Part shown: positions 683-47,146 of the stretch, piece by piece
How positions within the stretch are numbered: position 1 is the stretch's first letter
How the letters are laid out: each line of letters opens with the position of its first letter
NCBI GenBank assembly: GCA_017647405.1
Contig: JAGCKR010000018.1
Location: forward strand, 5,056-69,055
DNA: 64,000 nt
From: Alphaproteobacteria bacterium
Lineage (GTDB): Bacteria > Pseudomonadota > Alphaproteobacteria > CAAHEQ01 > UBA3637
Reading direction: 5' to 3'
Made by a program: the position numbers and the translations under genes
The notes under the pieces: model-generated
Told to the model about the DNA's origin: nothing
The model's input: the letters and a program-made list of their open reading frames with translations, nothing else
Databases searched by the model: none

Positions 683-1093
683 ATGAAAGATGAAAATAAA
701 ATGAAAGAAAGACTAAAAAAAATAGGCTATACTCTTAAACATAAAATTGCCTTTTTAAAAACAGAAAAACAACTCAGAGGAAAAAATACCTTAAACGGTT
801 ATTTACATGACATCGAAAAACCACTCCTATATTTATTTTGCTTTTGGATGAGTATCGAAGAAATTCATAAATTTCATCGGACACATAACCGCCATCATGT
901 GAAAAACAACTTAAAAAAACACCCCAATGATTTATTAGACACTGTTATTGATTGGGAATGCGCCAGATTTACCAAAAAAGACAAACCCCTTAATGCCTAT
1001 CAAACATTGATGAAGCTTTATCCTGAATATAAATCAACATACCTACCGATTATAAAAAGGTATCTGCCTCATCAAGTCAAAGAAAAAGAATAG
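683..1093 (+). CDS. Hypothetical protein with His-rich putative metal-binding motifs (LHDIEKP, HKFHRTHNRHH)
   Basis: 136-aa ORF in an otherwise empty interval. No family recognised with certainty. Confidence 0.5.
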   Translation: MKDENKMKERLKKIGYTLKHKIAFLKTEKQLRGKNTLNGYLHDIEKPLLYLFCFWMSIEEIHKFHRTHNRHHVKNNLKKHPNDLLDTVIDWECARFTKKDKPLNAYQTLMKLYPEYKSTYLPIIKRYLPHQVKEKE

Positions 1094-1168
1094 CAAAAAA
1101 TTTTTTAATCAAAATAAAGAAAAAATTAACTTTTGAAGTAAAAATAATATGTACCGCCTCATCAAAAC

Positions 1169-4100
1169 TTATGGCGCAACAAACTCACCGCCAACGGCTT
1201 TATAAAAACGGATCAAATTCGTATAGAACGTTCCCAATGATTTAATCATTTGCATTTGCGCTTGCAACCGGTTTTGTTGGGCTTGTAAAACATCGGTATA
1301 ATCAATCAACCCGTTTTTATATTTATTTTTCATCAAGTTGGCTACCATATTAGCATGCGCATATGTTTCTTGAAGCAATTTATAATGCCTATTTTCCTGA
1401 TAAAGCGCCAAAATTGCATTTTTGATTTCATTCGCCGCCTCTAAAAGCGTTTGTTGATAAGCAAGAAGCATTTCTTCTTTCACCGCTTTTTGAATTTCAA
1501 CATTTTCTTTTAACGCGCCGAAATGAAATAATGGCGCCGTTATCCCCGGTGTAATGGTATGCATAAAACTATCTTTTTTCAAGAAACTGTTCCAATTTAA
1601 AGATTCAAAACCAAATAAGGCTGATAAACTTATTTTCGGAAACATATCAGCAATAGCCGCCCCCACTAAAGCATTTTGGGCAACAAGGTTTTCTTCCGCC
1701 GCTTTGACATCCGGTCGGTTCAAAAGAACCGTTGCCGAAATTTTTGTTATTTCATTTAAATCAAACGTCAATGGCCGAGATAACAAAGAGTTATCTTCTT
1801 TCTTTAATAAATCATTCACACTGCCGGGCAATTCTCCAACCGCCAACGCCAACGCGTTTTTGCTTTCATCCAACTGATACGTCAACTCTGTTAATGTTGC
1901 CGAAGTGTTTTTTAAAAGATAAAGTGCCTGTTCAAAAGATAACATGCTTGCAAGACCGGTTTTTTGTTTATCTTTTACTATGTTTGTCATTTCCTTTTGA
2001 AGCCGGATATTTGATTTTGTTTGCCGAACAAGTTCTTCCAACGTTCTGGTTTGAAGATATCTTAAAGCCACTTCTGCCGTTAAAGAAACCTGCATATTTT
2101 CAATAGCATAAAGAGAGGCTTTCACATTTGCTTTTTGAGCTTCAATACGCCGACGTTGCCCACCAAACAGATCTAACTCCCACGAAGCATCCAAACCTAT
2201 CTGATAATAATCTTCATTTAAAATTTCCCCCATGGTTTTACTGTTTTTGATATCATTATATGAACCAGACACATCAAAGGTTGGGAAAAGACCTGCTTTT
2301 TCAATTGAAAGACCGGCTCTTGTTTTTCGAAGTTGCCAAAAAGCCTGCTTATAAGTCGGGCTGTTTTTAAAAGCCTTTTCAATGAGGGCATCCAAAGATT
2401 TATCTTTTAAGGCTTTGGGTGTAAAAAGCGTTGGTTTCGTTAATGTTGTGTTTAATGCTTTTTTAAGTTCGGCTTCAGTAAAAAATTGAGGTTGCTGATA
2501 ATCCGGCCCTAATTGGCATGAAGACAAAAAACCACCCAATATCAAAATAACCAAACTCTTTACAATTATTTTTTTATTTTTATATCGCAAAGAAATTTTA
2601 TCAAATAAAGCAAAATATGCCGGCACAAATAAAATACCAATCATTGTTGCCACAATCATTCCACAAAAAACAGTTGTGCCAATAGAGCGTTGACTGGCAG
2701 CCCCTGCTCCGGTTGCAATAACCATGGGGAATGTTCCCAAAATAAACGTTAATGCCGTCATAACAACGGCGCGAAACCGTTCGGTAGACCCTTTTAAAGC
2801 AGCTGCCGAAACAGCCATACCGGATTGCTGATATTGATGCGTAAACTGAACAATTAAAATAGCATTTTTACTGGCAAGCCCAATCAGCATAACGATACCC
2901 AACTGCGCATAAATACTTAAACTCAAATCAAAAAGTTTTAACCCGATCAAAGCGCCACATATAGCAAAAATATTGCTTAAAATCACTGATACGGCAATCC
3001 ACCAACTTTCATAAAGGGCCACCAAGAAAAGATAGGAAAAAATAAGGGCCAGTGTAATTAAAATAACCGCTAATCCTTTTGTTTCAACTTCTTGAAGAGT
3101 TAACCCTGTCCAAAACAATGAAAAATCTTTTCCAAGAGTGGTAGAAAACCTTTCTAAAGCATTTAATGCCGTACCGGAACTCACATGCGGGGCTGTTTGA
3201 GCCGTCACACCGGCACTTAAATATTGATTAAACCGATAAATGATTTTTGGGCTAACAACAATTTTTTCCGTTAAAAAATTTTGAACCTGAATCAATTTTC
3301 CCAGAGCATTTGGCACATAAAGCTTCCCAATATCAGCCATATCTGCCCGATCTTGAAAATCAGCTTGAATAATCACTTTATTTAATTGCCCATCCACCGT
3401 GATATTATTCACATAGCGCGACCCTAAATTATTTTGCAAAACAGAGAACAAATCCGACAGTTGCACCTGAAAAGCGGATAATTTGGTTCGATCAATATCT
3501 AAATAAACATGCGGCGTATCAACCGTAAAGGGTGAAAAACCAAAAGAAAACAGTTTATTTTCATTAATAAAACGCAATGTTTTTTCTAAAGCCTCTGCCA
3601 ATTCTTCCGGTTTTGTTTCCTGATTAAGCGCCGAAAGTTCAAACCCAACTCCATCCGCATTGCCAACGCCCGGAATAGACGGCATGGCAAAAAAATTAAT
3701 ACTTACCCCGTGTTGGGAAGGAAACTGACTGTTTAATTCAGCTAATATACGCTCCATTGAAAGACCTTGTTTATCACGCTGATCCCAAGAGGTTAACACA
3801 ATGGCTGCCATCCCGATATTTTCACCACTTGCTGATAACATGCTGTTACCTGAAATACCGATAAAAGACTGAATACCCGAAATTTTACGCGCTTTTTCAG
3901 ATATTTCCTGAAGCAAGCTTTGTGTTTGATTGATGCTGGCTGTGGCCGGTAATTCTAAAGAAGCCATAATAATACCTTGATCTTCTTGTGGTACAAATCC
4001 TTTGGGAACAAAGTAAAATAAAACACCAATCAGACCAATAACAACGCTTGTGATCATCACTGTTATTTTCATATATCGACATAAGAAAGCAACACATTGA

Positions 4101-5674
4101 CCGTATTTTTTTTCTCCTTTATCTAAAAAAGAATTAAACAGAGTCATCCACCAAACAGGTTTTCTTGTTTTTTTCCCTAAAAAAATGGCACAAAGCGCCG
4201 GACTAAGCGTTAAAGCATTCACAGCGGAGAAAAAAACAGCCGTTGCCAACGTTACTGCAAATTGCTGATAAATTTTACCCGTCATGCCGGCCATTAAACC
4301 AACAGGGATAAAAATCGCCATCAAAACAAAGGTTGTTGCAATAACAGAAGAAGAAATATCTTTCATGGCCTGAACAGAAGCTTCAAAAGAATTCATCTGA
4401 CGATATTTAATCAGATATTGCACCCGCTCAACAACAACAATGGCATCATCTACCACAAGACCAATCGCCAAAATCATGGCAAATAATGTTAAAATATTAA
4501 TATCAAACCCTAAAAGATAAATAACAATAAACGTTGCAATTAACGAAACGGGAATGGTGATCATTGGAATCACTGTTGCCCAAAGATCTTGCAAAAAAAG
4601 ATAAACAATCGCCATCACCAAACAAAATGTTATCAAAAGGGTTATTAAAATGGCTTGGATACTTGCTTTAACAAATGTTGTTGAATCATAAACAATTTCA
4701 AATTTGATATCCTTGGGAAATGATTTTTCCAATACAGTCATTTCTTTTTTAAGATTTTTCATAATTTCCAAAGAATTGGAGTTAGGCAACTGCGACAAAG
4801 CCATCACAACTGATGGCTGATTATTAAAACTGGCATTGAGTTGATAACTATCGGCGCCGATTTCAAGACGGGCAATATCTTTAAGACGAATAACACCGCC
4901 TTTTTGATTGGCTCGCACAATAATTTCTTCAAAATCCTCCACGCTTGACAGCAACCCTTTTGTTGTAACAGAAAGAACCTGATTGGTGCCTTCCGGCGCC
5001 GGTGCAGATGAAAGCGAACCAACTCCCGCCACCTGATTTTGCGATTCAACTGCCTGAATAACCTCATTAGAGGTAAGGCCAACGCCATTCATTTTCGTTA
5101 CATCCAACCAAATACGAATGCTATGTTGCGGGCCATAAATATTCACATCTCCCATCCCGCTAATTCGTTTAAAGGGATTTTGAATGTGGGTAAACGCAAA
5201 GTTACTTAGATAAAGAGGACTATATGTTTTTTGAGGAGAGGTCAATGCAATAAATGCCAAAATATTTGCCGATTGTTGATGAACGTCTAATCCTTCTTGA
5301 ACAACAATCTGGGGCAAAAAAGGTTTTGCTTTATCCAGTCGATTTTCCACCTTAACCTGCGCAATATCCGGATTGGTGCCAACATCAAAGGTGATTGTTA
5401 ATGTATATTGGCCGGTATCAGTTGCCGTGGAAGACATATAAAGCATCCCTTCCACCCCGTTAATTTGATTTTCAATAGGTGTGGCAACCGTATCTTTTAA
5501 AACCAAAGCATTCGCCCCCGGATAATTGGCTGAAACAATAATTTGCGGAGGTGTAATATCAGGATATTGAGAAATAGGCAACACAATACCCGCAATCAAA
5601 CCTGCCAACACCATCACCAAAGCTATAACTCCCGCAAAATGAGGGCGATTGATAAAAAAGGAAGAAAAATTCAT
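1169..5674 (-). CDS. RND (AcrB/HAE1-type) efflux transporter fused in frame to a NodT/OprM-type outer-membrane factor lipoprotein
   Basis: The N-terminus MNFSSFFINRPHFAGVIALVMVLAG and ~1030 aa with multiple TM blocks are typical of AcrB-like pumps. Residues ~1035-1053 read KNKKIIVKSLVILILGGFLSS-C followed by QLGPDYQQP (lipobox plus the GPDY motif of OMF lipoproteins). A further ~450 aa of OMF-like sequence follows. There is no stop between the two parts. Confidence 0.85.
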   Translation of the reverse strand: MNFSSFFINRPHFAGVIALVMVLAGLIAGIVLPISQYPDITPPQIIVSANYPGANALVLKDTVATPIENQINGVEGMLYMSSTATDTGQYTLTITFDVGTNPDIAQVKVENRLDKAKPFLPQIVVQEGLDVHQQSANILAFIALTSPQKTYSPLYLSNFAFTHIQNPFKRISGMGDVNIYGPQHSIRIWLDVTKMNGVGLTSNEVIQAVESQNQVAGVGSLSSAPAPEGTNQVLSVTTKGLLSSVEDFEEIIVRANQKGGVIRLKDIARLEIGADSYQLNASFNNQPSVVMALSQLPNSNSLEIMKNLKKEMTVLEKSFPKDIKFEIVYDSTTFVKASIQAILITLLITFCLVMAIVYLFLQDLWATVIPMITIPVSLIATFIVIYLLGFDINILTLFAMILAIGLVVDDAIVVVERVQYLIKYRQMNSFEASVQAMKDISSSVIATTFVLMAIFIPVGLMAGMTGKIYQQFAVTLATAVFFSAVNALTLSPALCAIFLGKKTRKPVWWMTLFNSFLDKGEKKYGQCVAFLCRYMKITVMITSVVIGLIGVLFYFVPKGFVPQEDQGIIMASLELPATASINQTQSLLQEISEKARKISGIQSFIGISGNSMLSASGENIGMAAIVLTSWDQRDKQGLSMERILAELNSQFPSQHGVSINFFAMPSIPGVGNADGVGFELSALNQETKPEELAEALEKTLRFINENKLFSFGFSPFTVDTPHVYLDIDRTKLSAFQVQLSDLFSVLQNNLGSRYVNNITVDGQLNKVIIQADFQDRADMADIGKLYVPNALGKLIQVQNFLTEKIVVSPKIIYRFNQYLSAGVTAQTAPHVSSGTALNALERFSTTLGKDFSLFWTGLTLQEVETKGLAVILITLALIFSYLFLVALYESWWIAVSVILSNIFAICGALIGLKLFDLSLSIYAQLGIVMLIGLASKNAILIVQFTHQYQQSGMAVSAAALKGSTERFRAVVMTALTFILGTFPMVIATGAGAASQRSIGTTVFCGMIVATMIGILFVPAYFALFDKISLRYKNKKIIVKSLVILILGGFLSSCQLGPDYQQPQFFTEAELKKALNTTLTKPTLFTPKALKDKSLDALIEKAFKNSPTYKQAFWQLRKTRAGLSIEKAGLFPTFDVSGSYNDIKNSKTMGEILNEDYYQIGLDASWELDLFGGQRRRIEAQKANVKASLYAIENMQVSLTAEVALRYLQTRTLEELVRQTKSNIRLQKEMTNIVKDKQKTGLASMLSFEQALYLLKNTSATLTELTYQLDESKNALALAVGELPGSVNDLLKKEDNSLLSRPLTFDLNEITKISATVLLNRPDVKAAEENLVAQNALVGAAIADMFPKISLSALFGFESLNWNSFLKKDSFMHTITPGITAPLFHFGALKENVEIQKAVKEEMLLAYQQTLLEAANEIKNAILALYQENRHYKLLQETYAHANMVANLMKNKYKNGLIDYTDVLQAQQNRLQAQMQMIKSLGTFYTNLIRFYKAVGGEFVAP

Positions 5675-6759
5675 TGCTCTAATCCTTCAGCTTGTTTGCC
5701 AATTTGAAAATTTGATATCGGAACAGTTATAAGCGCCTCCCCTTCCATTAAACCAGATTTAATCCAATATTGATTCCCGATAGATGCTCCGATTTCAACA
5801 GCCTGTTTTTGAATAATCCCCTCTTTTAAAAGCGTGGCCGTGGCTCCATTTGAGGTTAAGGTGATCCAATTTTTATTAACTAAAATCCCTTTTTTCGAAT
5901 ATAAAAAACGCACTTCTATATATGCCCCCGGAACCAAAAGTTTTTGATCATTTGGAACATCGATAAAAAAGGAAAGTGAATCCGTTGATTTATCCACGCG
6001 ATTATTATGAACTACACGAAACTTTTCAAACTCCATGAGTTTGCCATCTGATAACATCACTTGTAAAAGGGCGGTATCAAAATTAAAAATATCCCCTTTA
6101 TAAATAGACATCGGTATTGAAAAAACCAATCGGATGGGGGAAAATAAAATAATTGTAGCTAAGGACGGACTTTCCGGTGAAAGATATTCCCCGATTGTTG
6201 CGGTAATATCCCCTACCCATCCACTAATCGGTGCTTGAATAACAGTGTAATTATAAATCGTTTGAGCTTGATTTTCAGCTGCCAACGCCTTTTCATATAC
6301 GGCTTTTGAGGACTCATATTTTGTTTTAGCTTCTTCTAACTCGGTAAATGAAATAGCTTTTTTATCCGTTTTAAGCATCCGCTCATAATAAAGTTGATCA
6401 TTTTCTTGTTGCGCTTTTGCTTGTAAAACGGCTTCTTTTGCTTGTTTTAACTCAGCTAACGGAATTTTTTGATCCAATAAAAATAGCGTTTCACCCTTTT
6501 GCACCTCTGCGCCCGATTGCACATGAACTTCCTTTAAATATGCCGATAAATAAGGAACAACGGCCACGGCTTGAACCGCTTCAACCGAACCGATAAATTT
6601 TTGAATATAGGTGAACGATTGTTCTTTTAAATAATGCACCGGAACAGTCAATCGTTGGCTTTTTTCAAGGGGTTGATTTTCAGAAGTCCTTGATTTAAAA
6701 TTAAAAAACAACCCTATTATCAATAAAAAACCTAAAAGAAATATAAAAACTTTTTTCAT
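5671..6759 (-). CDS. RND efflux periplasmic adaptor (membrane fusion protein, HlyD/AcrA family)
   Basis: N-terminal membrane anchor, lipoyl-like motif (VQKGETLFLLDQ), coiled-coil segment and beta-barrel-like C-terminus. A 4-nt ATGA overlap with the downstream RND gene indicates an operon. Confidence 0.85.
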   Translation of the reverse strand: MKKVFIFLLGFLLIIGLFFNFKSRTSENQPLEKSQRLTVPVHYLKEQSFTYIQKFIGSVEAVQAVAVVPYLSAYLKEVHVQSGAEVQKGETLFLLDQKIPLAELKQAKEAVLQAKAQQENDQLYYERMLKTDKKAISFTELEEAKTKYESSKAVYEKALAAENQAQTIYNYTVIQAPISGWVGDITATIGEYLSPESPSLATIILFSPIRLVFSIPMSIYKGDIFNFDTALLQVMLSDGKLMEFEKFRVVHNNRVDKSTDSLSFFIDVPNDQKLLVPGAYIEVRFLYSKKGILVNKNWITLTSNGATATLLKEGIIQKQAVEIGASIGNQYWIKSGLMEGEALITVPISNFQIGKQAEGLEQ

Positions 6760-6909
6760 TTAATACCCCCCTTAACAAAAAGGAAGCATTAAAAAAAGAA
6801 TCAAGAGAGATTATTCTTCAGGCTATACATTTCTCTAAACATTTCTCTAAAAAAAGAGAATTATTTTTTACCTCCTTTCCACAAAAAGAAAATGAATCAA
6901 AATTATTTC

Positions 6910-6938
6910 TTGACAAATGAAACAAATCATCTCAAAAT
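6910..6938 (+). promoter_or_regulatory. Putative sigma70-type promoter of the cysS leader transcript
   Basis: TTGACA (6910-6915), 17-nt spacer, CAAAAT (6933-6938). Confidence 0.4.
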
Positions 6939-6963
6939 AAAGAAAAACTTAAAAAGGATTCAA

Positions 6964-7011
6964 ATGAATAATTTAAATATGAAATGTTGTTGCTGTTGTC
7001 ATTTTCTCTAA
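6964..7011 (+). CDS. Candidate leader peptide MNNLNMKCCCCCHFL (five consecutive Cys codons) upstream of cysS
   Basis: ATG at 6964 is preceded by AAGGA (6954-6958, 5-nt spacing). Codons TGT TGT TGC TGT TGT occupy 6985-6999 and the TAA stop is at 7009-7011. A Cys run is not expected from the AT-rich background composition. Confidence 0.55.
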   Translation: MNNLNMKCCCCCHFL

Positions 7012-7053
7012 GCCTTGCTGCCAGAGTTGTTTTCAGCAACACCATTTTCACTT

Positions 7054-7082
7054 AGAAGGCAGCCTCTTTCGCTGCTTTTTTT
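7054..7082 (+). terminator. Intrinsic terminator (attenuator) between the Cys leader ORF and cysS
   Basis: GCAGC (7059-7063) pairs with GCTGC (7071-7075) around a 7-nt loop and is followed by seven T (7076-7082). An upstream AGAAG can extend the stem onto the T tract. It lies 27 nt before the cysS ATG. Confidence 0.5.
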
Positions 7083-7108
7083 AATTTTAAACACAAAGGA
7101 AACAAAAA

Positions 7109-8530
7109 ATGAGCGTATATTTATATAACACAAAGACCAGAGAGAAAGAAGAGTTTAAACCACTGAATGAAAAAATGGTCACAATGTATTGCTGTGGTCC
7201 AACCGTATATTCTTATGCGCATATCGGCAATCTTCGCACGTATATTTTTGAAGATTTGATTGCCAACACCCTTCGTCTTGCCGGCTATAAGGTTAAACAC
7301 GTGATGAATGTAACTGATGTCGGGCATTTAACAAGTGATGAAGATGAAGGCGAAGATAAAATGCTTGTTGCCGCTGAAAAAGAGAAAAAAAGTGTGATGG
7401 AAATTGCCCGTCATTATGAAGAAACTTTTTTCAGACACACATCCGAACTCGGCCTTAAACGGCCAACCATTATTTGCCGGGCAACAGAGCATATTGAAGA
7501 TATGATTAAATTTGTGAAATCCTTGGAAGATAAAGGTTTTGCTTATTTTTCAAATGGGAACGTTTATTTTGATACATCAAAATTTGAAAAATATGGTTGT
7601 CTTTCAGGGCAAAATCGCGAAGATTTAAAACATGGAGCCAGAACTGAACAAGATACCAATAAACGCAATGCTTCCGATTTTGTTCTTTGGTTTACTTCCT
7701 CCAAATTTGAAAACCAAATTTTACAATGGGATAGCCCTTGGGGACGTGGCTACCCTGGATGGCATATTGAATGCTCTGCCATGTCCACTAAATATTTAGG
7801 AGAAAGAATTGATATTCATTGTGGCGGTATTGACCATATTCCTGTTCACCATGAAAACGAAATTGCCCAAAGTGAAGCGCATTTAGGACACGAATGGGTG
7901 AATTTTTGGATTCACATGGAGTTTTTAAACACAAAAGCCGGTAAAATGAGCAAATCCACCGGTGGAAAAACAACGATTGACTCTTTAAGAGAAATGGGCT
8001 ATCTGCCTATGCATTATAAATATTTCACCCTCACCTCTCATTATCGCAGTTCTGCCGTTTTTTCAGAGGAAGCAATGGATGGGGCTAAAAAGGCTTATGA
8101 AAACCTTTGCGATTATGTGGCAACTTTTAAGGCAAAAACAAAGAATACATCCTTAACAGCCGAAGAACAAGCAGAGGTTGAAACCTTAAAAAATGAGTTT
8201 AATGCTTATTTGTTTGATGATATTAAAACACCGCTTGCCATTTCTCACATGTGGGGTGTTGCAAAGGATAACAAAAAATCAGAAAATGTTCGCCTTGCCT
8301 ATTTATTGCATGTGGACAATGTGTTAAATCTTGAACTTAAAAACGTTGAAGCCAAAAAAGAACAGGCAGTTGAAATCACACCGGAAATTGCCGATCTTTT
8401 AGAGCAACGAAAAGAAGCAAGAGCCACCAAAAACTGGGCAAAATCAGATGAAATTCGCGATAAACTGGCAGCTCTTGGCGTGGGTGTTAAAGACTTGCCA
8501 AATAAAGAAATTGAACTCATCAAGCTTTAA
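7109..8530 (+). CDS. cysS: Cysteinyl-tRNA synthetase
   Basis: Class I signatures HIGN (YAHIGNLRTY) and KMSKS (GKMSKSTG), typical length, and an AAAGGA SD upstream. Confidence 0.97.
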   Translation: MSVYLYNTKTREKEEFKPLNEKMVTMYCCGPTVYSYAHIGNLRTYIFEDLIANTLRLAGYKVKHVMNVTDVGHLTSDEDEGEDKMLVAAEKEKKSVMEIARHYEETFFRHTSELGLKRPTIICRATEHIEDMIKFVKSLEDKGFAYFSNGNVYFDTSKFEKYGCLSGQNREDLKHGARTEQDTNKRNASDFVLWFTSSKFENQILQWDSPWGRGYPGWHIECSAMSTKYLGERIDIHCGGIDHIPVHHENEIAQSEAHLGHEWVNFWIHMEFLNTKAGKMSKSTGGKTTIDSLREMGYLPMHYKYFTLTSHYRSSAVFSEEAMDGAKKAYENLCDYVATFKAKTKNTSLTAEEQAEVETLKNEFNAYLFDDIKTPLAISHMWGVAKDNKKSENVRLAYLLHVDNVLNLELKNVEAKKEQAVEITPEIADLLEQRKEARATKNWAKSDEIRDKLAALGVGVKDLPNKEIELIKL

Positions 8531-26335: not shown

Positions 26336-27019
26336 CTACCCTTCTTTAATCATTCCGTTATCAACACTGATTTGCCGATCCATCTGAAGCGCCAATTCAG
26401 GATTATGTGTTGCAATCAGGGCTGATAAATTTTTTTCCTTGACCAATTTCAACAATGTTTGAAACACTCCTTCGGCCGTTTTGGGATCTAAATTACCGGT
26501 TGGTTCATCGGCTAATAAAACATTCGGCTCATTTGCCAATGCTCTTGCAATGGCCACACGCTGTTGTTCCCCACCGGATAATTCACCAGAACGATGTTTC
26601 AAACGGTGCTTCAAGCCAACAAGATCTAATAATTCCTCAGCTCTTGCTTTGGCTTTTTTTTCATTTTGACCATTAATTAATTGTGGTAACATCACGTTTT
26701 CAAGCGCATTAAAATCAGGCAACAATAAATGATATTGATAAACAAACCCTATTTCTTTTCGGCGCAAGAAGGTTCTTTCTTTATCGGACGCCGAAGAAAC
26801 ATCTTTACCACCAACAAAAATTTGACCGCCACTTGGCTGATCTAAAAGACCGGTAATATGCAAAAGTGTTGATTTGCCGGAACCGGAAGGACCGACCAAT
26901 GCCGTAATTTCGCCCTTTTTAAGCGCAAAATTCACATCTTTTAAAACATCCAATCGCGTGTCTTTTTTCCCATAAAATCGACTGATACTCACCAATTCAA
27001 TTGCCGGATGATTATTCAT
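26336..27019 (-). CDS. lolD: Lipoprotein-releasing system ATP-binding protein
   Basis: Walker A GPSGSGKST, signature LSGGEQQR and Walker B LLADEP. It overlaps the upstream FtsX-type permease gene. Confidence 0.85.
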   Translation of the reverse strand: MNNHPAIELVSISRFYGKKDTRLDVLKDVNFALKKGEITALVGPSGSGKSTLLHITGLLDQPSGGQIFVGGKDVSSASDKERTFLRRKEIGFVYQYHLLLPDFNALENVMLPQLINGQNEKKAKARAEELLDLVGLKHRLKHRSGELSGGEQQRVAIARALANEPNVLLADEPTGNLDPKTAEGVFQTLLKLVKEKNLSALIATHNPELALQMDRQISVDNGMIKEG

Positions 27020-28256
27020 ATCTTAACGCCTCCACCGGATCTGTTTTACTTGCTTTATAAGAAGGATAAATCGTTGAAAGTAATGATAATACAAGACTCA
27101 TCACAACAACCATTGTCACTTCGCCCATTTCAACTTTTGCCGGCAATTTTGAAAGAAAATAAATCTCTGCCGAAAAAAGCTCTTTTCCGGACAAACCTTC
27201 CAAAAACTCTTTAATCGCATCTATATTTTCGCAAAAAAGCATCCCAAGTGCAAAACCTGCAAACGTTCCAACAACACCGATTGTTAACCCGGACATTAAA
27301 AAAATCCGTTGAACGGCACCTCTGCTCATTCCCATTGTTCTTAAAACAGCAATATCCTTTGTTTTATCTTGCACCAACATAATAAGACCCGAAATCATAT
27401 TAAATGCAGCCACAATAATGATTAAGGTTAAAATTAAAAACATCACATTGCGTTCCACCTCAATGGCATTAAAAAAGGCCTGATTCGTATATCGCCAATC
27501 TTGAATTTGCGCATCCCGACCAATCGATGAAAATGCTTCAGAGGCAATTTTTTCATAATCGGCCCCCTTATTTGTAAACACCTCTAAATGCGAAATTTTA
27601 TCCCCCGTTACAAAAAACTTTTTTGCTTCATCAAGTGGCATGAATAAGAAATTGGCATCATACTCACTCATTCCACTATCAAACACACCTAAAACAGTGT
27701 ATGCTTTCATTTTCGGAATGGTTCCAAACGCCGTGATATTGCCTTTGGGGGAAACAAGAGAAACTGAATCTCCCGGTCTTAACCCCAGACGACGCGCCAA
27801 ACGATATCCAAGAACAACTTGACTGTCCATAAACTCTTCCAAATCAATACCTTTATATGAACCACCCAATAATGGCCGTTTCATAAAATCTTCCTTCGTC
27901 ATCCCTCGAACCATCACACCAGCCGATGCTGCCTCAGAAGAAACCATCACCTGACCATCCACAACAGGAACCACATGCGCCACTTCTTTAATCTCTTGCA
28001 TGATTTTTTTCTTTTCGTCCCCATTTTCAAGATAAGGCCCAAAAGAAGGATAAACGCCTAACTGTCCATTGATACCCAAAACTCTTGTTAAAAGTTCCTC
28101 TTTAAATCCGTTCATCACGCTCATCACAATGATAAGCGTTGCCACACCAAGCATTATCCCTAAAAAAGAAAAACCGGCAATCACAGAGACAAACCCTGTT
28201 CTTTTTCTTGATTTCAAATAGCGAAATGCTAACATCCGTTCTGTTTTTGAAAACAT
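27012..28256 (-). CDS. lolC: Lipoprotein-releasing system permease (LolC/LolE family)
   Basis: MacB/FtsX architecture (TM1, large periplasmic domain, three C-terminal TMs) and conserved N-terminus AFRYLKSRK. Confidence 0.82.
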   Translation of the reverse strand: MFSKTERMLAFRYLKSRKRTGFVSVIAGFSFLGIMLGVATLIIVMSVMNGFKEELLTRVLGINGQLGVYPSFGPYLENGDEKKKIMQEIKEVAHVVPVVDGQVMVSSEAASAGVMVRGMTKEDFMKRPLLGGSYKGIDLEEFMDSQVVLGYRLARRLGLRPGDSVSLVSPKGNITAFGTIPKMKAYTVLGVFDSGMSEYDANFLFMPLDEAKKFFVTGDKISHLEVFTNKGADYEKIASEAFSSIGRDAQIQDWRYTNQAFFNAIEVERNVMFLILTLIIIVAAFNMISGLIMLVQDKTKDIAVLRTMGMSRGAVQRIFLMSGLTIGVVGTFAGFALGMLFCENIDAIKEFLEGLSGKELFSAEIYFLSKLPAKVEMGEVTMVVVMSLVLSLLSTIYPSYKASKTDPVEALRYE

Positions 28257-41689: not shown

Positions 41690-42853
41690 CTATTCATCAT
41701 CAATTGAGCCGTTGCGCCCAATAACCATTTCTTTGTTGATATAAACCGATTGCACCAGTCCAAACCCGAAAAAGAGCGTTAACATTGCCGTTCCTCCATA
41801 AGAAACAAGCGGTAACGGCACACCAACCACCGGCAATAATCCCGTTACCATACCAATATTGATAAATACATATAAAGCAAAGTTAATTCCCAATCCCGTT
41901 GCCAAAATTTTTCCAAAATAATTATTTGAAATCATCCCGACATAAAAACAATATAAAATAATAATGAAAAAGAGCAAAATCAAGGCTGTTGCCCCTAAGA
42001 AACCAAACTCTTCCGCAATCAGCGTGAAAATAAAATCCGTTTGCTTTTCCGGAATAAATTCCAATCGGCTTTGCGTGCTTTGAATAAAACCTTTTCCAAA
42101 TAATCCACCGGAACCCAAAGTGATCTTGGATTGCATGATATGATAACCGCTTCCCAACGGATCATTTTCCGGATTTAAAAAAGTGAGCACCCGCTTTTTT
42201 TGATAATCATGTAAAAAAGTCCATAAAATCGGCACACTTACCACACCAGCCAGCCCAACAAGGGCAAATTTCCAAATTTGAACACCAACTAAAAAGAAAA
42301 TGGCTGCACTGCAAAAAACAAGCATCAACCCTGTGCCAAGATCCGGTTGCTCTAAAATAAGCGCCACCGGACAAACCATCATCAACACCGGCGGTATAAT
42401 ACCGCGTATCGACCTGATTTCTGAAAGAGTTGTTCCGTGAAAATAACGCGCCAGTGCCAAAACAAGCGCAATTTTCATCAGTTCGGATGGTTGCAAATTC
42501 ATAAAGCCCAGATTAAGCCAACGTTGTGCCCCCATTCCAACATGCCCAAACACCATCACCCCGATTAAAAGAAGAAAGCTTCCTCCATAAATCACATAGG
42601 CATATTTCATCCAAAGTCGCAAATTAATCATAGATGCAAAAACAAGAGCGCCCAAAGACAACAAAAAGCGAATAAATTGTTTATCCGCCCAGCGGTGCCA
42701 TTCGCCGTTTGCCGCTGAATAAAGCGTTCCGATACTGATAAAAACAGCCAAACACACCAAAAATAACAGCTTATAATTAAATCCTTTAATTTTATCGGTA
42801 AGCGATAAATTATAATTTTTAAGATAACAGTTTCTGTCTTTAAAAAAGGGCAT
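41690..42853 (-). CDS. rodA: SEDS-family peptidoglycan polymerase RodA
   Basis: FtsW/RodA-type polytopic membrane protein located directly downstream of mrdA. Confidence 0.9.
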   Translation of the reverse strand: MPFFKDRNCYLKNYNLSLTDKIKGFNYKLLFLVCLAVFISIGTLYSAANGEWHRWADKQFIRFLLSLGALVFASMINLRLWMKYAYVIYGGSFLLLIGVMVFGHVGMGAQRWLNLGFMNLQPSELMKIALVLALARYFHGTTLSEIRSIRGIIPPVLMMVCPVALILEQPDLGTGLMLVFCSAAIFFLVGVQIWKFALVGLAGVVSVPILWTFLHDYQKKRVLTFLNPENDPLGSGYHIMQSKITLGSGGLFGKGFIQSTQSRLEFIPEKQTDFIFTLIAEEFGFLGATALILLFFIIILYCFYVGMISNNYFGKILATGLGINFALYVFINIGMVTGLLPVVGVPLPLVSYGGTAMLTLFFGFGLVQSVYINKEMVIGRNGSIDDE

Positions 42854-42866
42854 CTTTTTTTACCTT

Positions 42867-44690
42867 TTAATTGTTTTTCGGATAAAGTTTTAATGTTTCG
42901 GTTAAAATTTTTGCTGCCACTGGTGCTGCGCTGGATGAACCGCCACCGCCATGTTCAATCATTACCACAATAGCAAAGCGTGGATTTTGAACCGGCGCAA
43001 AAGCAGCAAACATCCCATGATCGCGATATTTCCATGGCAAATCTTCTTGTTTAATAATTCCTTTTTCACGTTCTTTCTTCGTGATACGGCGCACCTGCGT
43101 ACTGGCTGTTTTACCGGCCATTTTTTCGCCGTTTACATTAATTCGTGAGCGATAAGCCGTTCCTTTTTCATGGTTCACCACCTTGTTCATTCCCCGTTTA
43201 ATCAAATTCAAATGCTCTTTTTTAAAACCAAGTGATGCCGGCGTGTCCACCCCTTCCCCTTTAATCACGTGCGGTTTAATTTTTTTGCCTCCATTGGCAA
43301 TTTGGGCCGTCATATAAACAAGCTGCATCGGTGTTGTTCCCAAAAATCCTTGTCCAATGCTCAAATTCACGGTATCACCCGTTCGCCAATCATCTTTAAA
43401 TCGTTTCTTTTTCCATTCGGGTGTTGGAACAAGGCCTTCTCTTTCCCCTTTAATACCAATATTTACCGGCACACCAAAACCAAGGCGTTTGGCCATATTG
43501 GTAATTTTTTCCGCACCGATTTGTTGCGCCAGTTCATAAAAATAAACGTCACAAGAATGCATAAGCGCCTGTTCTAAATCAACCATGCCGTGGCCGGATC
43601 GTTTCCAACAGTGAAAATCATGGTTGCCGATAGTGACTTTTCCGCCACAATAAACTTTTTTATTCGGATGAATAATTTTATGTTCAAGACCGGCAAGAGC
43701 TACCACCAATTTAAAGATTGATCCCGGTGAATAAGTTCCCGTTAAAGCTTTATTTTGAAGAGGCCTTTTTTCATTATCAATTAAAGAACGCCAAACTTTA
43801 ACCGGTACCGGCATCGTGAAAATATTTGTATCATAACTGGGGCTTGAAACCATTGCCAAAATTTCACCGGTATTCACATCCATCACAATAGCACTGCCGG
43901 ATTCTTTGCCTAATGCCGTTAAAGCCACTTCTTGTAATCTGCTGTCTATGGTTAAATTCAGGCTTTCCCCTTTTTGTGAAACAGCTTCTTCCAAAACCCG
44001 CACGGAACGACCATAAGCGTTCACCTCTTTTTTCTTGAACCCCGGTATGCCTTTTAACACCTCTTCAAATGAATTTTCAAGACCAGTACGCCCAATGCGA
44101 TACCCCGGCAAATCAGCAAGCGGATCATCCGGATTTTCTTCCAAATCTTTATCATTCATCAATGAAACATATCCGATTAAATGGGCGTTTACATCTTTTA
44201 AGGGATAATGCCTGATCAAATCTTCTTCAATTTGAATACCGGTTAAATCCGGCGCATTTAAATGAAGTTTTGCCGCTTCTTCAAAACTTAACCCATCCTT
44301 AATTCGAATAGCCATATAGGGGCGTTTACGCTTGATTTCTTTTTGAATTCTGGCTTTTTCATCTTCATCCAACACAATGATTTTTTCAAAATTTTCAAGC
44401 GATTTTTGAACGTTTAACGCTTCTTCTTTTATCAGCACTGCCTGAAAATTCTTTTTGTTTTCAGCTAGTTTCACTCCGTTTCTATCAAAAATATTTCCAC
44501 GTGACGGAAGCGTTAATCGAACAGACGTTCTGTTTTTATCTGCTAAAAGACGGTATCTGTCACCTTGCAAAATTTGAAGATAAAAAACTCTGGTGATCAA
44601 AACAATAATTAACAGAAAAAAAACAAGCAACAAAACAATCAGCCGCTTGATAAAAACACGGTCTTTCTCATATTTCCATGGAGCGCTCAT
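42867..44690 (-). CDS. mrdA: Penicillin-binding protein 2 (elongasome transpeptidase)
   Basis: N-terminal TM and dimerisation domain. Transpeptidase motifs are present: SxxK region (YSPGSIFK), SCD in place of SxN, and KTAST in place of KTG. Confidence 0.92.
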   Translation of the reverse strand: MSAPWKYEKDRVFIKRLIVLLLVFFLLIIVLITRVFYLQILQGDRYRLLADKNRTSVRLTLPSRGNIFDRNGVKLAENKKNFQAVLIKEEALNVQKSLENFEKIIVLDEDEKARIQKEIKRKRPYMAIRIKDGLSFEEAAKLHLNAPDLTGIQIEEDLIRHYPLKDVNAHLIGYVSLMNDKDLEENPDDPLADLPGYRIGRTGLENSFEEVLKGIPGFKKKEVNAYGRSVRVLEEAVSQKGESLNLTIDSRLQEVALTALGKESGSAIVMDVNTGEILAMVSSPSYDTNIFTMPVPVKVWRSLIDNEKRPLQNKALTGTYSPGSIFKLVVALAGLEHKIIHPNKKVYCGGKVTIGNHDFHCWKRSGHGMVDLEQALMHSCDVYFYELAQQIGAEKITNMAKRLGFGVPVNIGIKGEREGLVPTPEWKKKRFKDDWRTGDTVNLSIGQGFLGTTPMQLVYMTAQIANGGKKIKPHVIKGEGVDTPASLGFKKEHLNLIKRGMNKVVNHEKGTAYRSRINVNGEKMAGKTASTQVRRITKKEREKGIIKQEDLPWKYRDHGMFAAFAPVQNPRFAIVVMIEHGGGGSSSAAPVAAKILTETLKLYPKNN

Positions 44691-45190
44691 ACATCCGCTC
44701 CCACTTTTTTATTTATAAAGGCCGAAAATGAGGCAATAAACGGATAACATAAAACTATCGTTAAATAATTAACTAAAAAAGAAACGGTTGAAATGGTTTT
44801 ATCTAATGTCAGATATAAAACAAACAATCCCGATAAGGAAACAAAGAGTAAAACACCCGCAAAAACAGCCCATTGTGCTTTAAAAGAAAAAAGACGCAAA
44901 CTTCTTTGATAAAAAACGGCAAAGAACGCCATAAAACATAAAATATATGATTGAAAGCCCAACGGGAAAAATAATAACATATCCGAAAAAATACCCACAA
45001 GGAAAACGAATAAAATATTAAGTTTTTTCGGATTAAACACTGAAAAATAAAAGGTAAAACACGTTAAAAGAGAAATTAAAAAGGTTTCTTTATGCCCTTG
45101 AACAAAAAAAACAGCTTCTAAAAAGGCAAACAAAATCATAACCAAAAAAGGAACAAAATATGAAAAATATTTCTTTTTGAACAACCGCAT
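44687..45190 (-). CDS. mreD: Rod shape-determining protein MreD
   Basis: Small polytopic membrane protein between mreC and mrdA, with overlapping stops and starts. Confidence 0.75.
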   Translation of the reverse strand: MRLFKKKYFSYFVPFLVMILFAFLEAVFFVQGHKETFLISLLTCFTFYFSVFNPKKLNILFVFLVGIFSDMLLFFPLGFQSYILCFMAFFAVFYQRSLRLFSFKAQWAVFAGVLLFVSLSGLFVLYLTLDKTISTVSFLVNYLTIVLCYPFIASFSAFINKKVGADV

Positions 45191-46050
45191 TATTCTTTTT
45201 CCTCTTTTTCACACGTGTTTTCAATTAATCCGCCTAAACCAAAATCAACAACTTCAACAAACCCCAAATTATTTTTATTTTCGATTAAACGAACTTTAAC
45301 GGCGTCCTTTGTTTTTTTAACATAGCCAATCGGCAATCCTTGCGGATAAACACCCACCATACCGGCTGAAAACACAAAATCACCTTCTTGAACACCGGCC
45401 TCTTCCGGCAAGGCAACCAAATCCGGCAACTCTGAATTATCCCCCATTAAAATAGCAGGCACCTTTTGGCTTCCCACAAAAACCGGCAATCTTGAAAAAT
45501 AATCAGTTAATTTCAACGCTCTGGCCGTTTGATTGCCCACCTCAATCACATGACCGAACAAAGCACCATTCAATAAAAGAACATTGCCTTTTTTAATGCC
45601 TTGCGCTTCCCCGCCATCCAAAACCAGCGAGTGAGAAAAAATGCTGTGATGTTCTGCTAAAACAGAAACCACCTTGGACGGATGAGTTGTTTCAAAGCGA
45701 TAATTTAAAATATCGGCCAATTCTTTCTTTTCAAGCGCTAATTGAAGCGCTTTATTTTGCCAACTTTTTAATAATTGATTCTCCGCACGCAGTTTTTTGT
45801 TTTCCTCATAAACATTAAAATAGTTTTGATAGGCATCCATTTTGCTTTGAATTTTTTCAAACGGCGTTGATACCATATCAAAAACAGGCGAAAAAACGTC
45901 CCTTGAAAAAGAACTGACTTTCGAAAAAACAACTGATTTTGATTGCGTGGAAACAATAAATAAAAAAAGCGAGGCCACAGTAAAAGCAAGGGCAATAAAT
46001 CTTTTTAGCTGCTCTTTAATCCGTTGCAGTCGAAAAAACTTATTGCCCAT
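45190..46050 (-). CDS. mreC: Rod shape-determining protein MreC
   Basis: N-terminal TM, coiled coil and beta-rich C-terminal domain; located downstream of mreB. Confidence 0.85.
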   Translation of the reverse strand: MGNKFFRLQRIKEQLKRFIALAFTVASLFLFIVSTQSKSVVFSKVSSFSRDVFSPVFDMVSTPFEKIQSKMDAYQNYFNVYEENKKLRAENQLLKSWQNKALQLALEKKELADILNYRFETTHPSKVVSVLAEHHSIFSHSLVLDGGEAQGIKKGNVLLLNGALFGHVIEVGNQTARALKLTDYFSRLPVFVGSQKVPAILMGDNSELPDLVALPEEAGVQEGDFVFSAGMVGVYPQGLPIGYVKKTKDAVKVRLIENKNNLGFVEVVDFGLGGLIENTCEKEEKE

Positions 46051-46072
46051 TTTTATCCCGCTTATTTTTTAA

Positions 46073-47146
<1,074 letters not shown>

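What the first reader, a model, noticed from the sequence alone, without database searches (positions are those of the whole stretch)
1169..5674. RND pump and outer-membrane factor encoded as one 1501-codon ORF joined by an internal lipoprotein signal peptide
Residues ~1-1030 form a complete AcrB-like transporter. The frame then continues without a stop through ...FDKISLRYKNKKIIVK-SLVILILGGFLSS-C-QLGPDYQQP... into a full NodT/OprM-type outer-membrane factor. The junction (minus strand, about nt 2516-2590) has the anatomy of a lipoprotein signal peptide: a basic n-region, a hydrophobic core, the lipobox L-S-S-C, and then the GPDY motif that follows the lipidated Cys in OMFs. RND C-termini are cytoplasmic, so this segment would span the membrane N-in/C-out. 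That would expose the lipobox to Lgt/LspA, and signal peptidase II could liberate a lipidated OMF from the pump after translation. No ATG/GTG or SD is available for independent OMF initiation; only ATA, ATT and TTG codons occur. The two proteins normally are separate polypeptides in different membranes. A polyprotein-style arrangement, which would give stoichiometric co-production, would therefore be unusual. The upstream adaptor gene overlaps by ATGA, so the whole tripartite pump would come from two ORFs.
Basis: partly seen in the sequence, partly recalled or inferred. Interest (0 to 1): 0.7.

Follow-up and report, generated by a model that had tools for sequence, protein, structure and literature searches.

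The report
Efflux pump fused to its outer-membrane channel
An inner-membrane drug-efflux transporter and its outer-membrane exit channel are here encoded as one protein, joined by an internal lipoprotein export signal that most likely lets the cell cut the channel free; the arrangement is real, conserved, has arisen repeatedly in bacteria, and appears undescribed.

Summary
Window 1169-5674 (-) is one 1501-codon ORF: a complete HAE1 RND permease (residues 1-1025), a 27-residue linker built like a lipoprotein signal peptide (basic n-region, 13-residue hydrophobic core, lipobox L-S-S-C1053), then a complete NodT-type outer-membrane factor (OMF).

It is not an assembly error. Three independent assemblies give the identical junction. 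Thirty further 90%-identity clusters (46-79% identity) are fused in the same way, and all 31 keep the lipobox.

Unfused sister genomes have overlapping RND and OMF genes with a strong Shine-Dalgarno (SD) site and an ATG for the OMF. The fused clade has lost both, so the OMF can only come from the long ORF.

Cys1053 aligns with the lipidated Cys1 of mature OprM, OprN, CusC and MtrE.

The fusion is recurrent: at least two more events within this RND subfamily, and further fused lineages in Planctomycetota and Bacteroidales. The largest is a separate lineage of 119 or more clusters in Kiritimatiellota and in cultured Desulfobacter and Tichowtungia.

Best explanation (about 0.75): a polyprotein matured by Lgt and LspA, releasing a lipidated OMF for Lol transport. 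Cleavage is inferred, not shown. I found no paper describing this. I rate it a new variant of a known kind, interest about 0.62.

The parts
5671..6759 (-). Periplasmic adaptor (membrane fusion protein) gene, 362 aa. It has an N-terminal TM anchor and no lipobox. Its stop overlaps the start of the fused ORF (ATGA).
   Evidence: ORF. (TIGR01730, 166 bits against a cutoff of 94.9). (ATGA overlap).
1169..5674 (-). The whole fused RND-OMF ORF: 1501 codons plus the stop at 1169-1171.
   Evidence: Identical in three independent assemblies.
2600..5674 (-). RND (HAE1) permease module, residues 1-1025. It has 12 TM segments, and the proton-relay motifs are present (VVDD407-408, SKNAIL, ERFRAV).
   Evidence: ACR_tran 3-1024. 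(TIGR00915 above its cutoff). (hydropathy and motifs).
2558..2599 (-). Basic cytoplasmic loop, equivalent to a signal-peptide n-region: K1026-K1039 (KISLRYKNKKIIVK, 6 K/R). It contains the A-rich tract with the A7 run.
   Evidence: K/R-rich in all 31 fused relatives (4-8 K/R).
2519..2557 (-). Hydrophobic core (a 13th hydrophobic segment) S1040-S1052, ending in the lipobox L-S-S. AlphaFold2 (AF2) predicts a helix at 1036-1052 that stops exactly before the Cys.
   Evidence: h-region 12-17 aa in most relatives. (-3 is L in 30 of 31; -1 is A, S or G in 31 of 31). (hydropathy). (AF2 helix at fragment residues 78-94).
2516..2518 (-). Codon of Cys1053, the predicted diacylglyceryl-modified residue and new N-terminus of the mature OMF after LspA cleavage.
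   Evidence: Invariant in alignment A1. Aligns with residue 1 (Cys1) of mature OprN, OprM, CusC and MtrE chains.
1172..2515 (-). Remainder of the mature NodT-type outer-membrane factor, Q1054-P1501. It begins with the (x)xGPDYxxP motif typical of lipidated OMFs.
   Evidence: TIGR01845, model 6-459 of 460. (full-length alignments to OprN, OprM and CusC). (AF2 gives the OMF protomer fold with most 10-residue blocks at pLDDT about 80-96).

Best explanation
The locus encodes a tripartite RND efflux pump from two ORFs: an adaptor, and a natural RND-OMF polyprotein.

Proposed mechanism:
1. The 12-TM RND module is inserted into the inner membrane and ends in the cytoplasm. That orientation is established for AcrB-type RNDs.
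2. The next segment is the former N-terminal signal peptide of the downstream OMF gene. It inserts N-in/C-out as a 13th hydrophobic segment and takes the OMF moiety across the inner membrane.
3. Lgt diacylglycerylates Cys1053. Signal peptidase II (LspA) cuts between S1052 and C1053.
4. The RND keeps the signal peptide as a short extra C-terminal helix.
5. The freed OMF is N-acylated, extracted by LolCDE (lolCE and lolD lie in the same window) and assembled in the outer membrane.
6. There it docks with the adaptor and the RND as in MexAB-OprM.

Origin: a 1-2 nt frame change in the short overlap that joins the RND and OMF genes in sister genomes. The OMF's own SD and ATG then decayed, which locked the fusion in.

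Shown: the fusion, its conservation, loss of the independent start, conservation of the lipobox, and homology of the Cys to Cys1.

Inferred: the topology of the 13th segment, Lgt/LspA processing, Lol transport, and any selective benefit such as 1:1 RND:OMF stoichiometry.
For: 1. Real and intact: full-length RND and NodT models score above their curated cutoffs. The proton-relay motifs and 12+1 hydrophobic segments are present. The OMF fold is predicted confidently. The junction is identical in three independent assemblies.

2. Maintained by selection: 30 further 90%-identity clusters at 46-79% identity are fused with 100% coverage. P0001-P0029 form one clade with no unfused member inside. Linker length varies from 28 to 35 aa, so indels have occurred, and all of them are in frame.

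3. Signal-peptide features are conserved while the linker sequence drifts: C is invariant, -3 is L in 30 of 31, -1 is A, S or G in 31 of 31, +2 is never Asp, and there are 4-8 K/R upstream.

4. No independent start: seven fused loci show no conserved ATG, GTG or TTG and no usable SD. L086 has no candidate start at all. The unfused sister MAGs L002-L005 and L007 have an ATG overlapping or abutting the RND stop; a strong SD (AAGGAGG or GAGAGGAG) is visible in L003-L005. This genome normally uses SD sites, 36 of 51 starts against 8% background.

5. Cys1053 aligns with residue 1 of mature OprN, OprM, CusC and MtrE. [quoted passage not shown]

6. Convergence: other fusions in Kiritimatiellota, Bacteroidales and Planctomycetota keep an internal lipobox. 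So do 35 of the 39 junction-spanning 50%-identity cluster representatives, and so do 103 of 103 testable members of a lineage of 119 or more clusters that includes cultured Tichowtungia and Desulfobacter.

7. The Lol machinery is encoded in the window.
Against: There is no experimental evidence of cleavage, lipidation or localisation for any member.

I know of no established case of Lgt/LspA acting on a signal peptide placed behind 12 TM helices, and none turned up in the literature searches.

lgt and lspA are not in the window, so their presence in this genome is assumed.

Some fused relatives do carry a Met in the linker (about half of the clade), so occasional internal initiation cannot be excluded in those.

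Six of 31 junctions fail the strict PROSITE-style core pattern, because of a Cys, Asn, Lys or Glu near the lipobox.

AF2 confidence in the linker is low, pLDDT 43-54.
Confidence: 0.75

Rival explanations
1. The OMF is made separately by internal translation initiation in the linker, at TTG or a non-canonical AUA/AUU. The long ORF is then only a tolerated read-through, and the fusion protein is a by-product.
For: TTG codons lie at -24, -12 and -9 codons from the Cys in the window. About half of the fused relatives have a Met somewhere in the linker. The linker is A/U-rich, which can favour SD-independent initiation.
Against: No start codon is conserved in position, and L086 has none at all. No SD-like motif is present, although 71% of the genes in the window have one. 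TTG at -12 or -9 would give a signal peptide with no n-region. If the RND frame were irrelevant, frameshifting indels or stops upstream of the start should appear among 29 or more diverged lineages, and none does. The same holds for 103 members of the second lineage, 78 of which lack a Met in the linker.
Confidence: 0.1
2. The protein is not cleaved. A single chain spans both membranes, with the 13th segment acting as a permanent tether between the RND and the outer-membrane channel.
For: The frame continuity is conserved, and no cleavage has been demonstrated. A covalent 3:3 RND:OMF assembly is conceivable in principle.
Against: The lipobox is conserved, with a small residue at -1 in 31 of 31 and an invariant Cys. 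A tether has no need of that. The hydrophobic core is only 12-17 residues, which is signal-peptide length and short for a stable TM anchor. No spacer separates it from the Cys. [quoted passage not shown] It therefore could not also sit at the inner-membrane surface of an assembled pump. That geometric step is an inference.
Confidence: 0.05
3. The polyprotein is cleaved, but by signal peptidase I or another protease rather than through the Lgt/LspA lipoprotein pathway.
For: Two fused representatives from other lineages lack the Cys at the junction (P0147 ...TSAKASLFTVGPDY, and P0172). This suggests a type-I-like variant can exist. The closest precedent that I know, Bradyrhizobium FbcH, uses a type I site (own knowledge).
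Against: In the window's clade the Cys and the -3/-1 lipobox residues are invariant or nearly so. The OMF belongs to the NodT lipoprotein family and aligns from Cys1.
Confidence: 0.05
4. It is a sequencing or assembly indel in the A-rich tract, or a decaying pseudogene. The true state would be two ordinary genes.
For: An A7 run lies at the junction, and losing one A would create an in-frame TAA right there. Some database 'fusions' are artefacts. For example, the fused frame in L076 degenerates into out-of-frame sequence after the lipobox.
Against: Three independent assemblies give the same junction. Relatives at 46-79% identity that lack the A7 run are fused in the same way. Both modules score as intact full-length family members. 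Restoring a stop would still leave the OMF without a start codon or an SD.
Confidence: 0.02

Closest known systems
Tripartite HAE1 RND efflux pumps with a lipidated NodT-family OMF (MexAB-OprM, MexEF-OprN, CusCBA, MtrCDE)
   Same: The same three modules in the same operon order (adaptor, RND, OMF). The RND proton-relay motifs are present. The OMF aligns over its full length with OprN, OprM, CusC and MtrE, starting from the lipidated Cys1.
   Different: In all described systems the RND and the OMF are separate polypeptides with separate starts. Here they are one ORF, and the OMF signal peptide is internal, behind 12 TM helices. The review of tripartite systems that I searched (PMC8277102) mentions no natural RND-OMF fusion.
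FbcH cytochrome b/c1 polyprotein of Bradyrhizobium japonicum (Thony-Meyer et al. 1989 and 1991). Cited from my own knowledge; not found in the searchable library.
   Same: One gene yields two membrane-system proteins. A polytopic inner-membrane protein is followed by an internal signal peptide that exports the second moiety, and the precursor is then cleaved.
   Different: FbcH uses a type I signal peptidase site, and both products stay at the inner membrane. Here the signal is a lipobox (type II), and the released product is predicted to travel to the outer membrane through Lol.
Fusions within the RND superfamily and engineered pump fusions (SecDF of Thermus thermophilus; engineered fusions of pump components made for structural work, the latter recalled from my own knowledge)
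   Same: They show that RND-superfamily partners tolerate covalent linkage (SecDF: PMC8277102).
   Different: SecDF links partners that lie in the same membrane and needs no cleavage. The engineered fusions are artificial. Neither links components that end up in different membranes.
Ordinary N-terminal bacterial lipoprotein signal peptides (Lgt/LspA/Lnt substrates; PROSITE PS51257-type)
   Same: The anatomy is n-region, h-region and lipobox, with L at -3, A/S/G at -1 and an invariant Cys. The +2 residue is never Asp. The segment is homologous to the N-terminal signal peptides of the unfused sister OMFs.
   Different: It is not N-terminal: the Cys is residue 1053, not residue 15-35. After cleavage the 'signal peptide' would stay attached to the RND rather than being released and degraded.

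Membership tests
HAE1 RND permease (PF00873 / TIGR00915) | Full-length match to the family model above its curated cutoff | tested here: met
   ACR_tran covers 3-1024, model 1-1020 of 1021, E=1e-283. TIGR00915 scores 984.8 against a cutoff of 940.35.
HAE1 RND permease (PF00873 / TIGR00915) | 12 TM segments and proton-relay residues (Asp-Asp in TM4, Lys in TM10, Arg in TM11) | tested here: met
   The hydropathy profile is consistent with 12 TMs. VVDD at 407-408, SKNAIL at 935 and ERFRAV at 965 are present. The residue roles are taken from knowledge of AcrB.
NodT-family outer-membrane factor lipoprotein (TIGR01845 / PF02321) | Full-length match to the family model above its curated cutoff | tested here: met
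   TIGR01845 covers residues 1049-1496, model 6-459 of 460, at 278 bits against a cutoff of 210.05. Two OEP repeats are found. AF2 gives the OMF protomer fold.
NodT-family outer-membrane factor lipoprotein (TIGR01845 / PF02321) | A lipobox Cys that becomes residue 1 of the mature protein | tested here: inconclusive
   Cys1053 aligns with Cys1 of mature OprN, OprM, CusC and MtrE, and the lipobox is conserved. Whether it becomes an N-terminus depends on cleavage, which has not been tested.
NodT-family outer-membrane factor lipoprotein (TIGR01845 / PF02321) | Encoded as a separate polypeptide with its own start and an N-terminal signal peptide | tested here: not met
   It is in frame with the RND, and the linker has no SD, ATG or GTG.
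Bacterial lipoprotein signal peptide (signal peptidase II substrate) | Core pattern: uncharged h-region followed by [LVI]-x-[AGS]-C | tested here: met
   The window matches the strict PS51257-style core. 25 of 31 relatives match the strict pattern, and 31 of 31 have the lipobox.
Bacterial lipoprotein signal peptide (signal peptidase II substrate) | Located at the N-terminus of the precursor (Cys within about the first 15-35 residues) | tested here: not met
   The Cys is residue 1053, preceded by a 12-TM protein.
Bacterial lipoprotein signal peptide (signal peptidase II substrate) | Diacylglyceryl modification by Lgt and globomycin-sensitive cleavage by LspA | not testable with these tools
   This needs biochemistry. 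Only LolCE and LolD were found in the window. lgt and lspA are not in the window (one search covered the ORFs of the right size).
RND periplasmic adaptor (TIGR01730) | Match above the curated cutoff and operon linkage to the RND gene | tested here: met
   166.2 bits against a cutoff of 94.9. ATGA overlap with the fused ORF. The same adaptor-plus-fusion arrangement is seen in L081-L087 and L001.
Polyprotein with an internal export signal (FbcH-type; an analogy, not homology) | One ORF in which a polytopic protein with a cytoplasmic C-terminus is followed by an internal cleavable signal and a second mature protein | tested here: inconclusive
   The sequence architecture fits. Post-translational cleavage has not been tested.

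The most novel reading that the evidence does not exclude
The fusion is more than a tolerated accident. On this reading it defines a distinct biogenesis route in which Lgt and LspA act on an internal signal peptide of a 13-TM precursor, so that one translation event delivers two proteins to two different membranes. That would be the first natural internal signal peptidase II substrate.

Two further claims go with it. The retained signal peptide would become a functional 13th helix of the RND, like a built-in small accessory helix. And pump assembly would be tied to lipoprotein maturation and fixed at 1:1 RND:OMF stoichiometry, which would explain why the arrangement has arisen and persisted repeatedly across phyla.
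Probability: 0.2. Interest if true: 0.8.

Novelty: new variant of a known kind. Interest (0 to 1): 0.62.

Why it matters
RND pumps are the main intrinsic multidrug-resistance machines of Gram-negative bacteria. Their three parts are always described as separate proteins that find each other across the periplasm.

A natural and repeatedly evolved RND-OMF polyprotein would show three things if processing is confirmed:
- The lipoprotein maturation enzymes can work on a signal peptide buried behind a 12-TM protein.
- An RND tolerates, or makes use of, a retained 13th helix.
- Fixed 1:1 co-production of pump and channel is viable.

It also gives an experimental handle on how OMF export and pump assembly are ordered, because cultured carriers exist (Tichowtungia aerotolerans; Desulfobacter postgatei, D. 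curvatus and D. latus).

There is a practical point too. Annotation pipelines label these genes simply as 'RND permease subunit', which hides an OMF. Genome surveys that count OMF genes will therefore undercount them.

Tried and rejected
It did not return the window's own fused clade. It did give the unfused sister MAGs and three fusions in other phyla. Matches reported as spanning the junction were mostly adjacent genes in different frames, so I had to re-check each ORF.

2. Seven completed literature searches found no description of a natural RND-OMF fusion or of an internal lipobox. This included a search for the FbcH precedent, which is not in the library. Many subscription journals are not covered, so absence is not proof.

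3. I looked for lgt and lspA among the window ORFs of suitable size and found none. Only lolCE and lolD were found.

4. The promoter and terminator scan of 1000-7200 was no better than shuffled sequence (25 promoter-like sites against 19.4 expected). I assign no promoter.

5. AF2 on residues 959-1501 confirms the helix at 1036-1052 and the OMF fold. The linker has low confidence and no coordinates are returned, so the model cannot settle the geometry or the question of cleavage.

6. I considered programmed slippage on the A7 run as a way to make an RND-only product. I rejected it as a general mechanism because relatives lack the run.

7. My first regular expression for the RND motif missed many distant representatives. 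I redid the analysis using the hit coordinates.

Full report
**Observation**

The ORF at 1169..5674 on the minus strand is real and is 1501 codons long. Pfam places ACR_tran on residues 3-1024, covering model positions 1-1020 of 1021, and OEP repeats in the C-terminal third. NCBIfam places the HAE1 RND model TIGR00915 on residues 3-1028 at 984.8 bits (cutoff 940). It places the NodT outer-membrane-factor model TIGR01845 on residues 1049-1496, model positions 6-459 of 460, at 278 bits (cutoff 210). Both modules are therefore complete.

The junction reads ...VPAYFALFD-KISLRYKNKKIIVK-SLVILILGGFLSS-C1053-QLGPDYQQP. The Cys codon lies at 2518-2516. A hydropathy scan gives the pattern expected of a 12-TM RND plus one extra hydrophobic segment at 1035-1056, and nothing hydrophobic after that. 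The proton-relay motifs are present, including D407 and D408. The adaptor gene 5671..6759 (TIGR01730) overlaps the fused ORF by ATGA.

**Not an artefact**

The identical 1501-aa protein was called on eight contigs. The three loci I retrieved come from different assemblies: ERZ27256955, SRR12529138 and SRR12529111. They differ from the window by 0-1 nt over 4506 nt and are identical across the A-rich junction, including the A7 run.

**Conservation**

A search of 5.8 billion proteins returned 30 further clusters of 1412-1523 aa. They cover 93-100% of the query at 46-79% identity and carry both Pfam domains. The next hits are ordinary RNDs of about 1040-1060 aa.

All 31 fused proteins have the same junction anatomy:
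- 4-8 Lys/Arg after TM12;
- an uncharged core of about 12-17 residues in most;
- a lipobox with L at -3 (30 of 31), A, S or G at -1 (31 of 31) and an invariant Cys;
- a residue at +2 that is never Asp, followed by xGPDY.

The rest of the linker is poorly conserved, and its length varies from 28 to 35 residues. Indels have therefore occurred, and all are multiples of three. In a neighbour-joining tree of the RND module, P0001-P0029 form one clade with no unfused member inside. P0030 and P0031 sit among unfused RNDs, which points to separate fusion events. The neighbour-joining tree is rough and should be repeated with better methods.

**How the fusion arose, and whether the OMF has its own start**

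The closest unfused relatives are alphaproteobacterial MAGs from animal guts (L002-L005, L007). In these the OMF ATG overlaps or abuts the RND stop, and in L003-L005 it is preceded by a strong SD site: AAGGAGGTGATCATG...TAG, GAGAGGAGAAAATAATG, AAGGAGGATAAAAATGCGTAA. In L002, L003 and L005, where my frame check found the OMF peptide, it lies in a different frame from the RND, and each encodes a normal N-terminal lipoprotein signal peptide such as MKITRLWLLSTVAFVSSC|TVGPDY. A 1-2 nt change in that overlap is enough to fuse the frames.

In the seven fused loci I examined at the DNA level (the window and L081, L082, L084-L087), no ATG, GTG or TTG is conserved in position. No SD-like motif lies at a usable distance. 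L086 has no candidate start at all. The absence is informative because 36 of 51 ORF starts in the window carry an SD-like 4-mer at 3-12 nt, against 8% at random positions. The internal segment is therefore the former OMF signal peptide, now without its own initiation signals. The OMF can only be made as part of the long ORF.

**Homology of the junction Cys**

I searched residues 1032-1501 against PDB sequences. Cys1053 aligns with residue 1 of the mature chains of OprN (5iuy, 5azo), OprM (1wp1), CusC (3pik) and MtrE (4mt0), with alignments running to the C-terminus.

In the CusC crystal structure, Cys1 carries three acyl chains located at the inner-leaflet interface of the outer membrane. [quoted passage not shown]

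AF2 on residues 959-1501, using 23 aligned sequences, gave a mean pLDDT of 80. It predicts TM11, TM12, a short loop, and a 17-residue helix at 1036-1052 that stops exactly before the Cys. An unstructured stretch follows, and then a confident OMF protomer with four strands and long helices. The linker itself has low confidence.

**Mechanism**

RND termini are cytoplasmic, which is established for AcrB. The basic loop followed by a short hydrophobic segment should therefore insert N-in/C-out and expose the lipobox at the periplasmic face. That is where Lgt and LspA act.

The invariance of exactly the residues those enzymes need argues for cleavage and against a permanent tether. So do the signal-peptide-like length of the core, the lack of any spacer before the Cys, and the outer-membrane position of the homologous Cys1.

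After cleavage the RND would retain a short 13th helix ending at S1052. The OMF would be a normal lipoprotein substrate for Lnt and LolCDE. lolCE (27012-28256, 452 bits against a cutoff of 362) and lolD (26336-27019) are encoded in the window.

I put this polyprotein/LspA model at about 0.75. The rivals are:
- internal initiation, about 0.1;
- cleavage by another protease, about 0.05;
- an uncleaved chain spanning both membranes, about 0.05;
- artefact or pseudogene, about 0.02.

Any advantage, such as 1:1 stoichiometry or co-translational targeting of the OMF, is speculation. A near-neutral fusion locked in by decay of the SD and ATG explains the data equally well.

**Generality**

A junction-spanning profile (A1) was searched against 1.84 billion cluster representatives. 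Of the best 150, 39 matched across the junction in one stretch. Sixteen of these are full length (more than 1350 aa), and 35 keep a lipobox at the junction.

Three species-representative genomes from other phyla carry such fusions with internal lipoboxes:
- Kiritimatiellota JACNKZ010000051, ...FFFGGC|LTVGPDYEQP;
- Bacteroidales CALUPT010000018, ...GGFAVSC|SPAKY;
- Planctomycetota JAEUHZ010000013, ...LLLAGC|AAVGPDYQRP.

The Kiritimatiellota gene also follows an adaptor gene with a 4-nt overlap. Searching with it returned 119 or more full-length fused clusters at 58-100% identity. These include isolates: Tichowtungia aerotolerans, Kiritimatiellota bacterium B12222, Pontiellaceae bacterium B12219, and Desulfobacter postgatei, D. 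latus and D. curvatus. All 103 members I could test keep the lipobox, and 78 have no Met in the linker.

JGI's pipeline labels some of these 'HAE1 family protein/NodT family ... outer membrane factor lipoprotein'. NCBI labels them only 'efflux RND transporter permease subunit'.

Not every database fusion is real. The fused frame in L076 degenerates after the lipobox and looks like an assembly frameshift.

**Comparison with what is known**

Functionally this is a MexAB-OprM-type pump. It passes the family tests for RND, NodT OMF and adaptor. It fails two features: 'separate polypeptide' for the OMF, and 'N-terminal position' for a lipoprotein signal peptide.

The nearest conceptual precedent I know is the FbcH cytochrome b/c1 polyprotein of Bradyrhizobium, which has an internal type I signal peptide. 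This is from my own knowledge, because the papers are not in the searchable library.

Seven completed literature searches found no description of a natural RND-OMF fusion or of an internal lipobox. That includes a comprehensive 2021 review of tripartite systems and a survey of fused outer-membrane proteins.

**Verdict**

I class it as a new variant of a known kind: a known pump with an undescribed gene architecture and an inferred new maturation route. Interest is 0.62. It would surprise efflux and lipoprotein specialists, and it is directly testable in cultured carriers, but the key step, cleavage, has not been demonstrated.

Noticed in passing
window 26336-28256 (-): lolD (227 aa, best hit TIGR02211) and lolCE (414 aa, TIGR02212 at 452 bits against a cutoff of 362) overlap as an operon. 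The organism therefore has the machinery that moves lipoproteins to the outer membrane.
   Followed up: partly
window 2563-2584 (-): An A-rich tract with an A7 run lies in the linker. Loss of one A would create an in-frame TAA and give an RND-only product. Relatives lack the run, so it is unlikely to be a conserved slippage site.
   Followed up: partly
L076 (Acidobacteriota MAG CAWATD010000006), about 6034-6774: An apparent RND-OMF fusion whose frame turns into Arg/Pro/Ala-rich out-of-frame sequence just after the lipobox (MRKLAASSLVALVLLTGC|AVGPE...). It is probably an assembly frameshift, and a caution that some database fusions are artefacts.
   Followed up: no
P0147 and P0172 (50%-identity cluster representatives): These fragments span the junction but have no Cys at it (P0147...LLVSFTSAKASLFTVGPDYKQP). 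They may be fused OMFs with a type I (non-lipoprotein) internal signal.
   Followed up: no
P0290-P0408: The second fused lineage is shared at about 65% identity between Kiritimatiellota and Desulfobacter species, which belong to different phyla. This suggests the already-fused gene moved by horizontal transfer.
   Followed up: no
P0272 and P0273, both listed with a contig of 8511 nt: Within the P0017 cluster, members of 800 aa and 695 aa are each listed with a JGI contig of the same length (8511 nt). If they lie on one contig, that copy is split within the RND part, by frameshift or by assembly error.
   Followed up: no
window 45190-46050 (-) and neighbouring ORFs 41690-47146 (-): mreC was identified. 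The sizes and order of the flanking ORFs suggest an mreBCD-pbp2-rodA cell-shape cluster. Only mreC was tested.
   Followed up: partly
L002-L005 and L007: In the unfused sister MAGs the RND and OMF genes overlap or abut by a few nucleotides (for example TAATG in L004, and ATG 2-8 nt before the RND stop in the others). This pre-adapts the gene pair to fusion by a single small indel.
   Followed up: yes
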